From the human T2T-CHM13v2.0 reference genome, Homo sapiens: a stretch of 64,000 bases of DNA. Within the stretch, counting starts at the first letter, position 1. Every line of letters begins with the position of its first letter. The translations under genes and the position numbers were made by a program. Where the stretch lies: assembly GCF_009914755.1 (NCBI RefSeq), contig NC_060925.1; one strand, written 5' to 3'. The notes beneath the pieces were generated by a model. The model was not told where the DNA came from. It ran no database searches and saw only the letters and a list, made by a program, of their open reading frames with translations. Positions 4,925 to 7,294 of this stretch are shown in pieces.

Positions 4925-5010
4925 TTGGCATATAGTACGTGGTTCAGTCAGTATTTATGAATGACTCAAGACACAAAAATAGCTTCATAAACAGTGCTTT
5001 GCTTGAGTTT
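4925..5010. repeat. Left arm of inverted repeat bracketing CHD1L exon 1
   Basis: 4947-5010 is the reverse complement of 6699-6763 with a single 1-nt indel; 4925-4946 matches 7183-7204 with 4 mismatches. Confidence 0.95.
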
Positions 5011-5531
5011 GTCCGCTCACTACCGCACGTAACTCGATCCGGAGAATTAATCCGTGGCGAATTCTCCAATAACTGCGCGCGCACAGTAAACGGAGAAGCT
5101 GAAGCTGGGAGATGAGTTGATCGTTTTACAGAAGCAACCAATAAACTCCCCAGGCCGGGACCCAAACCCACCGGAACAGCAACTGGAAACCTACATCCTT
5201 GGTGCACCAGGCCGTCCAACTCTTCAGCGGAGGCCTGCAGGTGGCGCTGATCTCACCACGTTTCCCCTCCACAGGCCAGGGGCCAGGCCTGGCTACCGGG
5301 CCCGCGACCTCATTCATCTGGCGTCCGCCGGCCCCGCGCGCCGCGCAGGCGGGGGCCGTGGCCACCAAGCCCGGGCGCAGTTTCTCTCCGCCCACGGCAG
5401 GAGCGAAGGAAGGCCCTGGCGCGGGCGGGTAAACTGCCCACCGGGCGGCCCACCCGCTGCGCCCCCGGCCCGCAAGAGGCAGTCCCAATAGGTTGGCCCG
5501 CCTGGCCGAAGTCCGCCCGGAGCCCGCTCAC

Positions 5532-5658
5532 CTGTCAGCCCCCACTGCCGTAAGTCCTGCTCCTGCACCCGCGCCGCCTCGGCTCGGCCCTCAGTATGAA
5601 GCCGCAGTAAGAAGCCAGGAGCTTGGCCCCCGCGGCTAGTAGCGCCCGCGCGCTCCAT
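5532..5658 (-). CDS. CHD1L: CHD1L (ALC1 chromatin remodeller) coding exon 1, 127 nt; rest of the gene lies left of the window
   Basis: Encodes [42 protein letters not shown], recognised as the CHD1L N-terminus; ATG at 5658-5656; donor CAG|GTGAGC at 5531. Confidence 0.95.
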
Positions 5659-6282
5659 CGGGCCGGTAGAGGCCCCGCCCCGCGCGGCCAAGCGCGCACC
5701 TCCCTCCCAACTTCCCAACGCGCGGGGGCGGGCGACTGCGCGCTGGGGCCCACCTATGAGCGAGGCGCCGCCAGAGGGCGCGTCCTGCCAAGATATCCGG
5801 AGCGGAGCTGGTGCAGTCACCCTTCCGGACAGGCAGTTCTTGCAGTGCGGAGCGTGGAAGGGCTGCCCAGTTCTCACCAGTCGTGCTTCTGAAGCGCTAG
5901 GCGTCTGATCACGCACAGGACGTCTGATTGCCTGAACTGCCCGTCAAGGAGGTGGCATGTGTTCATCATTCATTTATTATTTAATCAACATCGACTATCA
6001 TGTGTCAGACACTCCGCTGGGCCCTGGGGGTTCTAGAAGTAAGACTTGTTCCGTGCCCTCCAGTGATTCACGATAAGATCAAACTGTTCTTGTTCGGTTT
6101 ACCTAGTGATAAATTGATTTAGTCCCTGAAATCCCTTTCTTACTGCCTGTGACCTGTAGGCCAAAATTGGGAACCTCTGAATAGTAGTAAATTAAAATCA
6201 CCAAAGACGTCATTGTGGCAGTGGGTATCTCAAGTGCATTATGGGGAGCAGATTGAGGCAATGTGTTCAGTTAGGGGTCACC

Positions 6283-6293
6283 GTGACTCAGCA
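6283..6293 (+). promoter_or_regulatory. Consensus ARE/MARE (NRF2-sMAF) with embedded AP-1 site
   Basis: GTGACTCAGCA matches RTGACnnnGCA exactly; motif match only. Confidence 0.45.
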
Positions 6294-6698
6294 TCAGCTT
6301 TGAGTGGATTTATGATGTAGTATACCACTAATATAAATATGATAATAACAAAATAGCTGCATTTATTGATGAAGTTCTGGGTGGTGTCCTAAGGGCTTTA
6401 AGTATATTTTCTTATTTAACCTTCACAATAACCAATAATTAGGTGTTATAATTGTCCCCACATTGTAAATGAAGATATTGGGACTTGTAATGGTAATTGG
6501 CAGTACTGGAACAGGAACGATATTATTCTCTGGCTAATGTCATTAGAATAGTATTCTCATTTAGGTTAATCTTGGTGCTTCCTTCTTCAGTAAACTCATG
6601 TTAAATTTGTACCCTCCATTCTCATCTTCCTCTAAAATAAAAGGGAGAAATTTGTTCTGAGCTAGAAAAGGGATGACTTCAGATTGGTTTATTCATAA

Positions 6699-6763
6699 AA
6701 ACTCAAGCAAAGCACTGTTTTATGAAGCTATTTTTGTGTCTTGAGTCATTCATAAATACTGAC
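6699..6763. repeat. Right arm of inverted repeat (continues at 7178-7204 beyond LTR7)
   Basis: AAACTCAAGCAAAGCACTGTTTTATGAAGCTATTTTTGTGTCTTGAGTCATTCATAAATACTGAC = reverse complement of 4947-5010 plus one T. Confidence 0.95.
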
Positions 6764-7177
6764 TTTCATGCGCGTCCGTGTGAAGAGACCACCAAACAGG
6801 CTTTGTGTGAGCAATAAAGCTGTTTATTTCACCTGGGTGCAGGTGGGCTGAGTCCGAAAAGAGTCAGCGAAGGGAGATAGGGGTGGGGTCGTTTTATAAG
6901 ATTTGGGTAGGTAAAGGAAAATTACAGTCAAAGGGGGTTTGTTCTGTGGCGGGCAGGAGTGAGGGGTCACAAGGTGCTCGGTAGGGGAGCTTTTTGAGCC
7001 AGGATGAACCAGGAAAAGGACTTTCACAAGGTAATGTCATTACTTAAGGCAAAGACGGGCCATTTAAACTTCTTTTGTGGTGGAATGTCATCAGTTAAGG
7101 CAGGAACCAGCCATCTGGATGTGTACGTGCAGGTCACAGGGGATATGATGGCTTAGCTTGGGCTCAGAGGCCTGACA
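6764..7177 (-). mobile_element. HERV-H solo LTR (LTR7 family, LTR7B/Y-like)
   Basis: Minus strand begins TGTCAGGCCTCTGAGCCCAAGCTAAGCC and ends CACACGGACGCGCATGAAA; 5-bp TSD CTGAC (6759-6763 / 7178-7182). Confidence 0.92.
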
Positions 7178-7294
7178 CTGACTGAATTACATACTATGTG
7201 CCAAGCACTCTATGGTACTGAAGATAGAGGCCACTTATCTCCTGGATCTTACATTTTAAAAGGAGGAGACAAGCAATAAATAAAAATCAGGTAG

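What the first reader, a model, noticed from the sequence alone, without database searches (positions are those of the whole stretch)
4925..7204. Near-perfect 64-bp inverted repeat brackets the CHD1L promoter and exon 1
Seen: 4947-5010 and 6699-6763 are exact reverse complements except for one extra T. They enclose ~1.7 kb holding most of the CpG island, the presumed TSS and coding exon 1. The inner ~45 bp is not a repeat I recognise; only the outer end looks L2-like. Both arms carry TGACTCA (AP-1) and internal mini-palindromes (ACTCAAG...CTTGAGT; TTATGAA...TTCATAA). Inference, three options: a scar of a past inversion or template switch; a substrate for flipping the promoter cassette, which would point CHD1L exon 1 toward FMO5; or a 64-bp dsRNA stem that loops out exon 1 in any transcript reading through both arms, e.g. 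one started in the upstream LTR7/LTR5.
Basis: partly seen in the sequence, partly recalled or inferred. Interest (0 to 1): 0.8.

Follow-up and report, generated by a model that had tools for sequence, protein, structure and literature searches.

The report
Old copying scar brackets CHD1L promoter
A genuine, genome-unique 64-base inverted repeat surrounds the CHD1L promoter and first exon, but it looks like the fossil of an ancient DNA-copying accident rather than a working switch.

Summary
4947-5010 and 6699-6763 are exact reverse complements apart from one A/T-run indel, and they occur nowhere else in the 3.1-Gb genome. The repeat is longer than reported. If a 414-bp solo LTR (6764-7177, 5-bp target duplication CTGAC) is removed, it runs 86 nt, to 4925/7204, with 4 transitions, all in the outer 22 nt. 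The right arm is native: its outer half belongs to an old dispersed repeat that continues past the homology boundary. The left arm is a truncated, AT-rich inverted copy set in GC-rich CHD1L intron 1. It is sandwiched inside a second genome-unique 30-nt palindrome (4889-4918 / 5009-5038). This A-B'-A' module is best read as a multi-step template-switch or fold-back templated insertion older than the LTR, so tens of millions of years old. The perfect inner 64 nt against 4 of 22 outside (p≈0.003) suggests the arms were homogenised up to the LTR. Selection or chance cannot be excluded. A past inversion, a transposon and a known RNA family were tested and rejected. Promoter flipping and a read-through dsRNA stem remain untested and have no support.

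The parts
4889..4921 (.). Arm A of the second, local palindrome. It is CpG-rich (4 CpG, 58% GC). The core 4889-4918 is genome-unique apart from its partner.
   Evidence: I2: 33 nt, 94%; 2 genome hits at up to 3 mismatches, reversed control 0; alignment, composition.
4925..5010 (.). Left arm B': a derived, truncated inverted copy of the right arm (35% GC). The outer 4925-4946 carries 4 transitions against its partner. The inner 4947-5010 is perfect except for one A-run indel.
   Evidence: (empty-site alignment).
5006..5038 (.). Arm A', the reverse complement of A (1 mismatch in the 30-nt core). It overlaps the end of B' by AGTTT (5006-5010), a possible microhomology at the switch point.
4889..5038 (-). 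The 150-nt A-B'-A' module. It lies in CHD1L intron 1, about 500 nt downstream of the exon 1 donor, and folds as a long hairpin in the CHD1L-sense RNA and as single-stranded DNA.
   Evidence: RNA -66.4 kcal/mol, z -8.4, 0 of 200 shuffles as stable; DNA -42 kcal/mol, z -7.9; no Rfam family.
5011..6698 (-). The 1688-nt spacer. It holds the CHD1L CpG island, the TSS, coding exon 1 (5532-5678) and an alternative first exon (5172-5222).
   Evidence: Hub annotation; (ATG, GT donors, no AG acceptor before 5222).
6699..6763 (.). Right arm, inner part (native source copy, 32% GC, no CpG). 6741-6763 belongs to an old dispersed repeat. 6699-6740 matches nothing else.
6764..7177 (-). A 414-bp solo LTR inserted into the right arm after the duplication. 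Its termini are TTTCATGC...GCCTGACA on the + strand. The 5-bp target-site duplication CTGAC lies at 6759-6763 and 7178-7182. Its sense strand is the minus strand, the same as CHD1L.
   Evidence: 3081 first-look candidates; 39 scored copies at 91-93%; of 29 copies, 15 and 9 abut proviral internal sequence and 5 are solo, all 5 with an exact 5-bp duplication; divergence.
7183..7204 (.). Right arm, outer part, separated from the inner part by the LTR. It has 4 transitions against 4925-4946.
   Evidence: (I3).
7205..7294 (.). Continuation of the old dispersed repeat beyond the homology boundary. This shows the right arm is the native copy.
   Evidence: the 18-mer 7192-7209 spanning the boundary: 10,487 genome matches against 14 for the control.

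Best explanation
The inverted repeat is the fossil of one complex, replication- or repair-associated template-switch event: a templated insertion with fold-back. It is not a functional device. An 86-nt stretch 1.7-2.2 kb away, just upstream of the CHD1L promoter, was copied from the wrong strand and laid down in inverted orientation in intron 1. That stretch was part unique sequence and part old dispersed repeat. In the same event, or a closely linked one, the growing end folded back and copied about 30 nt of the sequence next to the insertion point. This produced the nested A-B'-A' palindrome at 4889-5038. Later a retroviral LTR integrated into the source copy. Since then the two arms have diverged outside the LTR (4 of 22) but stayed identical inside it (0 of 64). 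The most likely cause is that the arms were homogenised against each other, by gene conversion or arm-to-arm template switching, and that the 414-bp LTR heterology marks the outer limit of the tract. Shown: the anatomy, the uniqueness, which arm is native, and the order 'copy first, LTR second'. Inferred: the switching mechanism, the number of steps, the age in years, and homogenisation. I put the templated-copy origin at about 0.8 and homogenisation as the cause of the inner identity at about 0.5.
For: (1) The two arms are reverse-complement copies found nowhere else in the genome, so this is a local copying event and not a pair of repeat-family members. (2) Direction. The 18-mer spanning the right arm's outer boundary occurs 10,487 times in the genome against 14 for the reversed control. 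6 of 29 fetched family copies align from 6741-6752 straight across the LTR empty site to 7209-7229. The right arm therefore sits in register inside an older repeat, and the left copy stops in the middle of that motif. In composition, the left arm (35% GC) is foreign to its flanks (49-60% GC, CpG-rich), while the right arm (32%) matches its flanks (33-37%). (3) The left copy is enclosed by a second palindrome that is also genome-unique. Its inner end overlaps the copy by AGTTT. A reverse-complement copy of immediately adjacent sequence is what intra-strand (nascent-strand) template switching produces (passages of PMC5453318). (4) Age. The left arm is colinear with the LTR-free empty site. The LTR is a bona fide integration: it has a 5-bp duplication, as do 5 of 5 solo copies among the 29. 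It differs from the majority base of its 29 nearest copies at 17 of 391 columns, or 14 of 363 at non-CpG columns. A/A' (2 mismatches in 33) and the outer arm (4 in 22) show real divergence, which also argues against an assembly artefact. (5) Homogenisation. 0 of 64-65 inner against 4 of 21-22 outer gives Fisher p = 0.0028-0.0034. P(0 of 65) is 0.07, 0.018 and 0.005 at 4%, 6% and 7.8% pairwise divergence. Inverted-repeat arms are known to be homogenised by template switching (abstract and passages of PMC8604942; PMC8794818; PMC5453318).
Against: No outgroup genome was available. The ancestral state, and so which of A or A' is original, is not observed, and neither is the claim that the module is an insertion. 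Three switches are needed. Microhomology is only 2-5 nt at one junction and not evident at the others, and 3 nt (AAG, 4922-4924) are of unclear origin. The distal donor lies 1.7-2.2 kb away, outside the short-range model, which explicitly does not cover long-range or multiple successive switches (PMC5453318 passage). Homogenisation of 64-nt arms across a 1.7-kb spacer is at the low end of the homology quoted for recombination (50-250 bp, PMC8755829 passage). In yeast, template switching favours short spacers (PMC8604942 passage). The LTR-based age may be too high: the window copy is farther from the 29 copies (K2P 0.075) than they are from each other (0.055), so some of its 'private' differences may be subfamily differences. 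At 4% pairwise divergence, zero changes in 65 nt has probability 0.07. If GG>AA is counted as one event, the Fisher p rises to 0.013.
Confidence: 0.65

Rival explanations
1. Same origin, but the perfect inner arms are kept by selection because they pair as RNA. CHD1L-sense transcripts that start upstream of 6764 would contain both arms. Such transcripts could come from the solo LTR, whose sense strand is the CHD1L strand, or from the far-upstream CHD1L starts implied by the annotated gene span. The arms would form a 65-bp duplex that loops out the promoter/exon-1 region. That duplex could be an ADAR or dsRNA-sensor substrate, or could modulate splicing.
For: The duplex of the inner arms is -104.9 kcal/mol with a single bulge. 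Only the part of the right arm that lies downstream of the LTR in minus-strand RNA is perfect; the part upstream of the LTR has diverged. LTR orientation comes from the primer-binding-site-side flanks of 9 of 29 copies. The hub's table gives a CHD1L span reaching 75662 on the minus strand.
Against: No RNA, editing or conservation data were available. The same inner/outer contrast is predicted by conversion limited by the LTR heterology. The canonical TSS (5678) lies between the arms, so the main CHD1L transcript carries only the left arm. Selection for pairing would tolerate compensatory changes and does not predict zero change. No Rfam family matches. The literature searches found nothing on this locus.
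Confidence: 0.08
2. The arms are a live recombination substrate. Exchange between them occasionally flips the 1.7-kb promoter/exon-1 cassette, germline or somatic, and so creates CHD1L-null alleles that point exon 1 toward FMO5. The inner-arm identity is the footprint of repeated exchange.
For: The repeat is perfect over 64-65 nt and inverted around the promoter. Signs of arm homogenisation imply physical interaction of the arms, and conversion can be accompanied by crossover. Short inverted repeats flank all 59 human/chimp microinversions in PMC8755829 (abstract and passages).
Against: The arm length is at the bottom of the 50-250 bp minimum quoted for eukaryotic homologous recombination (PMC8755829 passage). 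Those microinversions are 17-33 nt, not 1.7 kb. No human site-specific recombinase is known for such sites (recall). A flip disconnects exon 1 from the gene, so it would be selected against and cannot be a regulated switch. Only one haplotype was available, and there the cassette is colinear with the gene (and annotation).
Confidence: 0.04
3. Same origin, but the inner identity is simply chance plus a low local mutation rate (AT-rich, no CpG). There has been no homogenisation and no selection.
For: The inner arms have 0 CpG. If the true post-copy pairwise divergence is about 4%, P(0 of 65) is 0.07. The total of 4 substitutions in 86 nt is close to the 3.4-7.4 expected at 4-8.6%. The LTR-based age may be overestimated.
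Against: All 4 differences fall in the outer quarter: Fisher p = 0.003, or 0.013 if GG>AA is counted as one event. Only 1 of the 4 outer differences involves a CpG (4938), so CpG decay does not explain the contrast.
Confidence: 0.2
4. The repeats are the inverted duplications left at the two breakpoints of a true inversion of the promoter cassette (staggered-break model).
For: Two overlapping pairs of inverted duplications exist, as that model produces.
Against: The model gives the order A-B-D'-C'-B'-D-E (recalled from work on Drosophila inversions). The inverted body would lie between D' and B', and D would directly follow B'. Here nothing lies between B' (4925-5010) and A' (5006-5038), and 1688 nt separate A' from the right arm. 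Exon 1 is in the same orientation as the rest of the gene (annotation), so a second, exact re-inversion would be needed.
Confidence: 0.02
5. The arms are a mobile element or an assembly artefact: a MITE-like transposon with terminal inverted repeats, a pair of young interspersed repeats, or a fold-back chimera in the assembly.
For: The 150-nt module has 30-nt terminal inverted repeats.
Against: Both the 30-mer and the 46-mer have exactly 2 genome hits each at up to 3 mismatches. There is no target-site duplication at 4888/5039 (J1/J4). A fold-back artefact would be perfect, but A/A' and the outer arm carry 2 and 4 substitutions, and the right arm carries an old LTR insertion.
Confidence: 0.01

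Closest known systems
Template-switch mutations (Ripley quasi-palindrome model; four-point model of Löytynoja & Goldman, PMC5453318; Mönttinen & Löytynoja, PMC8794818)
   Same: A reverse-complement copy of nearby sequence creates a perfect hairpin or inverted repeat in one step. The same process can later make imperfect arms perfect. The A/A' pair, about 85-90 nt apart, is on the scale of these events.
   Different: The B/B' copy comes from 1.7-2.2 kb away, and at least two donors are involved. The four-point model explicitly excludes long-range and multiple successive switches (passage). No ancestral sequence is available here to fit the model.
FoSTeS/MMBIR complex rearrangements, and polymerase-theta-type templated insertions with snap-back synthesis (recalled; MMBIR is also discussed in PMC8755829)
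   Same: Serial switches to nearby templates, inverted templated insertions, little or no homology at the junctions, and fold-back copying of the sequence next to the break.
   Different: Those are usually described as recent pathogenic, somatic or experimental events. This one is fixed, tens of millions of years old, only 114 nt of new sequence, and the junction microhomology is weak (2-5 nt at one junction).
Homogenisation of inverted-repeat arms (gene conversion or template switching; PMC8604942)
   Same: Arms stay identical while the neighbouring sequence diverges.
   Different: The documented short-repeat cases have spacers of 70 nt or less (passage). Here the spacer is 1688 nt and the arms are 64 nt. 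The evidence is a single contrast (0/64 against 4/22).
Invertible promoter switches (bacterial fim/hin-type phase variation)
   Same: Inverted repeats bracket a promoter-bearing cassette.
   Different: No dedicated recombinase is known, no second orientation has been observed, and inversion would break the gene rather than switch it.
Inverted Alu pairs forming intronic dsRNA (ADAR substrates, circRNA-promoting pairs)
   Same: Two inverted copies in one primary transcript could form a long duplex.
   Different: The arms are unique sequence, not Alu. They are shorter (65 bp against about 300 bp) but perfect. Both arms are co-transcribed only from non-canonical upstream starts. The exons between them are first exons without acceptors, so back-splicing is not expected.

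Membership tests
Template-switch mutation (inverted templated copy) | The new segment is an exact reverse complement of a nearby segment | tested here: met
   B'/B are 86 vs 87 nt with 4 substitutions and 1 indel. A/A' have 30 nt with 1 mismatch.
Template-switch mutation (inverted templated copy) | The donor lies within short range (same fork, tens to hundreds of nt), in a single switch-and-return | tested here: not met
   A/A' are about 85-90 nt apart (met), but the B donor is 1.7-2.2 kb away and two donors are needed. This fits the long-range, multi-switch class, which the four-point model leaves out.
Template-switch mutation (inverted templated copy) | The ancestral or outgroup sequence lacks the copy | not testable with these tools
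   Only the window's own genome is held. There is no paralogue of 4650-5250 in it.
Template-switch mutation (inverted templated copy) | Microhomology at the switch points | tested here: inconclusive
   The AGTTT overlap at 5006-5010 has 1 mismatch to arm A; TT is exact. None is evident at 4888/4889, 4921-4925 or 5038/5039.
Inversion breakpoint duplications (staggered breaks) | The order is A-B-D'-C'-B'-D-E, with the inverted body between the duplicated pieces | tested here: not met
   Nothing lies between B' and A', and 1688 nt lie between A' and B. The cassette is colinear with the gene (annotation).
DNA transposon / MITE | Multiple genomic copies and a target-site duplication | tested here: not met
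   There are 2 genome hits only for the 30-mer and for the 46-mer. The flanks aataa|...|ccgga are not duplicated.
Pair of young interspersed repeats | The arm sequence belongs to a high-copy family at high identity | tested here: not met
   no other copy. Only the outer ~45 nt resembles an old family, at 76-82% over 39-63 nt.
Invertible promoter switch | Inverted repeats flank a promoter | tested here: met
   and the annotation.
Invertible promoter switch | Both orientations exist, and a recombinase acts on the repeats | not testable with these tools
   Only one haplotype is available. No population or long-read data.
Known structured RNA (Rfam, including miRNA families) | A match to a covariance model | tested here: not met
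   the only hit in 4000-8500 is NPPA-AS1_3 at 7355-7465, 18 bits against a gathering score of 55, E = 0.85, outside the arms.
Solo LTR of an endogenous retrovirus (the insertion at 6764-7177) | High copy number, paired copies flanking proviral sequence, conserved termini, a short target-site duplication | tested here: met
   (3081 candidates; hits about 5.3 kb apart on C1 and C2). (24 of 29 copies abut shared internal sequences; 5 of 5 solo copies and the window copy have an exact 5-bp duplication).

The most novel reading that the evidence does not exclude
The inner arms are identical because they still interact, either as DNA or as RNA. As DNA, repeated exchange between them would keep them identical and occasionally flip the CHD1L promoter/exon-1 cassette, giving rare null alleles or somatic clones in the instability-prone 1q21.1 region. 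As RNA, LTR-initiated CHD1L-sense transcripts in early embryonic or pluripotent cells would fold the 65-bp duplex and loop out the promoter region. That would link retroviral LTR activity to CHD1L output or to dsRNA sensing.
Probability: 0.07. Interest if true: 0.6.

Novelty: new member of a known kind. Interest (0 to 1): 0.3.

Why it matters
As a scar, this is a clean and datable example in a medically relevant region (1q21.1, CHD1L). It shows that serial template switching can lay down a long perfect inverted repeat and a nested hairpin around a promoter. It also suggests that such arms can stay identical for tens of millions of years, with a retroviral LTR acting as a natural marker of where homogenisation stops. 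That is useful to people who model complex mutations and gene conversion. It warns against reading function into perfect repeats. It also marks a site that could mislead read mapping and variant calling. It would matter much more if the arms proved to mediate inversion or dsRNA formation, but nothing here shows that.

Tried and rejected

(2) Rfam over 4000-8500 at E up to 1: nothing in or near the arms.

(3) Paralogous 'empty site' in the genome for 4650-5250: none, so the ancestral state could not be recovered.

(4) Sensitive BLAST of the empty-site right region against the window and 29 LTR loci: only weak hits, E 0.1-0.75, so this was uninformative. It was replaced by the boundary-motif search and the family alignment.

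(5) Polarising the 4 outer differences with family copies: only partly informative.
- 7198: the right arm has the family base in 6/6 copies, but this is circular because the site lies inside the selection motif.
- 7188: 5/6.
- 7191: neither arm has the family base.
- 7187: only 1 copy is informative.

(6) Literature for prior description:
- 'CHD1L'+'LTR7': 1 paper.
- 'CHD1L'+'inverted repeat': 5 papers.
- 'CHD1L'+'HERVH': 2 papers.
Judged from listings, none is about this site. The one I opened (PMC9577936, passages) concerns LINC00624, between BCL9 and CHD1L, at the other end of the gene.

(7) Transposon, inversion-scar, young-repeat and assembly-artefact readings: rejected as set out under rivals.

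(8) A reading in which the copy was made after the LTR insertion, with the polymerase skipping the LTR via the 5-bp CTGAC duplication: considered and set aside as less parsimonious. It also does not explain the outer divergence.

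Full report
**Observation.**
- The repeat finder reports 4946-4991/6719-6764 (46 nt, 100%) and 4989-5010/6699-6720 (22 nt, 100%).
- A gapped alignment joins these into 65 vs 66 nt with no substitution and one extra base in an A3/A4 run.
- None of 100 shuffles of the window matched the 46-mer at up to 3 mismatches.
- In the 3.1-Gb genome that holds the window, the 46-mer occurs exactly twice at up to 3 mismatches, with 0 for the reversed control.
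- BLAST-type searches with 86, 285 and 601 nt found only these two places. The tool warns that its counts are lower bounds for common repeats, but its first look found only 2 candidates each time.
- Among 25 inverted pairs of at least 40 nt within 5 kb in the window, this is the only perfect one; the other 24 are 70-92%. The 4 of those 24 whose sequence was printed read as Alu (recall).
- The 1688-nt spacer holds the GC-rich island and exon 1, with its ATG and GT donor on the minus strand.
- The AP-1-type heptamer and both mini-palindromes are present in both arms.

**The repeat is longer than reported and is split by an LTR.** One search also pairs 4925-4952 with 7177-7204. Between 6763 and 7183 lies a 414-bp element (6764-7177) flanked by a direct CTGAC (6759-6763 and 7178-7182).
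- The genome holds at least 3081 first-look candidates of this element, and the 39 scored copies are 91-93% identical.
- All 29 fetched copies share the termini TTTCAT.../...CCTGACA-type.
- 15 of them abut one shared sequence on one side, and 9 abut CA(C/T)GGCA(C/T)(C/T)AAA on the other.
- The remaining 5 are solo, and all 5 have an exact 5-bp target duplication, like the window copy.
- Two hit pairs lie about 5.3 kb apart.

So this is a solo retroviral LTR. It also shows that the LTR's sense strand is the minus strand, the same as CHD1L. With the LTR and one duplication copy left out, the left arm 4925-5010 aligns without any gap at the join to 7204-7183 plus 6763-6699. That is 86 vs 87 nt, with 4 transitions, all in the outer 22 nt. 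Six of 29 copies of an old dispersed repeat align straight across the same join, so the join is genuine.

**Which arm is the original.**
- The 18-mer 7192-7209 spans the outer end of the homology (7204|7205). It occurs 10,487 times in the genome at up to 2 mismatches, against 14 for the reversed control.
- Family homology covers about 6741-7229, and reaches 7283 in one copy. No copy covers 6699-6740 (8 of 29 copies gave any hit at E ≤ 1e-3).
- The right arm therefore sits in register inside an older repeat that continues beyond the homology. The left copy breaks off in the middle of the motif and is followed by unrelated sequence.
- The left arm is 35% GC between flanks of 49-60% GC that are rich in CpG. 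The right arm is 32% GC between flanks of 33-37%.

The right arm is native and the left arm is the copy. The name L2 is recall only.

**The left arm is nested in a second palindrome.** 4889-4921 and 5006-5038 are reverse complements: the 30-nt core has 1 mismatch, and the full 33 nt has 2. This pair is also unique in the genome. So 4889-5038 reads A-B'-A'. It folds as a hairpin of -66.4 kcal/mol in CHD1L-sense RNA (z -8.4; 0 of 200 shuffles as stable) and -42 kcal/mol as single-stranded DNA (z -7.9). B' and A' overlap by AGTTT. Three bases (AAG) between A and B' have no clear source, and no duplication flanks the module. No Rfam family matches.

**Mechanism.** A unique reverse-complement copy of sequence 1.7-2.2 kb away is joined to a reverse-complement copy of the sequence right beside the insertion point. 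This is what serial template switching yields: one switch to the wrong strand at a distance, one fold-back onto the nascent or sister strand, and a return. The short-range version is documented in humans and great apes, and it both creates hairpins and makes imperfect arms perfect (PMC5453318 and PMC8794818: abstracts and passages; PMC7954356: listing only). The authors state that long-range and multiple successive switches (FoSTeS, MMBIR) fall outside their model, and this case belongs to that wider class. Whether it happened at a fork or during break repair, and whether A or A' is ancestral, cannot be told without an outgroup.

A staggered-break inversion is excluded by the order of the pieces, and because exon 1 is colinear with the gene (annotation). 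A transposon is excluded by copy number and the lack of a target duplication. An assembly fold-back is unlikely because the structure carries old substitutions and an old LTR.

**Age.** The left arm copies an LTR-free template, so the event predates the LTR integration. The LTR differs from the majority base of its 29 nearest copies at 17 of 391 columns, or 14 of 363 at non-CpG columns. The other copies average 1.9% (range 0.5-5.1%). With recalled primate neutral rates of 1.0-2.2e-9 per site per year, 3.9% is roughly 18-39 Myr. This may be too high, because the window copy is farther from the set (K2P 0.075) than the set's members are from each other (0.055). A/A' (2 of 33) and the whole arm (4 of 86) are in line with such an age.

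**The unexplained part.** All 4 substitutions lie outside the LTR insertion point and none lie inside.
- 0 of 65 against 4 of 21 gives Fisher p = 0.0028.
- 0 of 64 against 4 of 22 gives p = 0.0034.
- The value is 0.013 if GG>AA is counted as one event.
- P(0 in 65) is 0.07, 0.018 and 0.005 at pairwise divergence of 4%, 6% and 7.8%.

I favour homogenisation of the arms, with the 414-bp heterology marking the outer end of the tract. Homogenisation of inverted-repeat arms is well described (PMC8604942: abstract and passages). Against this, those cases have short spacers, and 64 nt is at the bottom of the 50-250 bp quoted for recombination (PMC8755829 passage). The same contrast would arise if selection acted on the part of the arm that is transcribed from the LTR. 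Chance is not excluded either.

**Function.**
- The canonical CHD1L transcript starts between the arms. It carries only the left arm and the 150-nt hairpin, in intron 1.
- Both arms share a transcript only if transcription starts upstream of 6764 on the minus strand, from the LTR or from the far-upstream starts implied by the annotated span. They could then form a duplex of -104.9 kcal/mol.
- The exons between the arms are first exons: 5172-5222 has a GT donor but AA, not AG, before it. Back-splicing is therefore not expected.
- Flipping the cassette would disconnect exon 1 from the gene. It could produce rare null alleles but not a switch.

None of these readings could be tested here. The searches 'CHD1L' with 'LTR7', 'inverted repeat' or 'HERVH' returned 1, 5 and 2 papers. 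Judged from listings, none deals with this site. The one I opened (PMC9577936, passages) concerns a lncRNA at the other end of CHD1L.

**Verdict.** This is a real, unique and old structure: a fixed scar of complex template switching around the CHD1L promoter, with a hint of later arm homogenisation and no evidence of function. It is a new example of a known kind of mutation. Interest is 0.3.

Noticed in passing
window 7295-8263: A second high-copy element of about 970 nt lies directly upstream of the right arm's repeat remnant. There are 1885 first-look candidates, and the 39 scored copies are 87-93% identical and span the query from 3-6 to 962-978.
   Followed up: partly
window 6741-6763 + 7183-7294: Remnant of an old dispersed repeat that is split by the LTR. 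The 18-mer 7192-7209 has 10,487 genome matches against 14 for the control. The L2/MIR-type name is not tested, since no repeat library was available.
   Followed up: partly
window 5172-5222 (minus strand): The 'exon of other transcripts' has a GT donor, but AA rather than AG precedes it. It is therefore an alternative first exon, with a second TSS about 450 nt inside intron 1, between exon 1 and the left arm.
   Followed up: partly
window 4700-4888: A separate GC- and CpG-rich block (0.57-0.68 GC) lies to the left of the module. The AT-rich left arm cuts it off from the main CpG island at 5150-5950. The insertion may have split an originally wider island.
   Followed up: no
window 6764-7177 vs loci L006-L034: The window's LTR copy is farther from its 29 best-matching copies (K2P 0.075) than they are from each other (0.055). 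It also has 4.3% private differences against their mean of 1.9%. It may belong to an older subfamily than the provirus-associated copies that were fetched.
   Followed up: no
window 6684-6703 vs 4950-4969 and 6745-6764: Just inside the right arm's inner boundary there is a weak internal echo of the arm's own 'TTCATAAA(T/A)ACT' segment (I6: 20 nt, 80%). This may be chance or an old internal duplication.
   Followed up: no
window 7355-7465: The only Rfam hit in 4000-8500 is NPPA-AS1_3, at 18 bits against a gathering score of 55, E = 0.85, inside the second LTR-like block. It is most likely shared repeat-derived sequence or chance.
   Followed up: no
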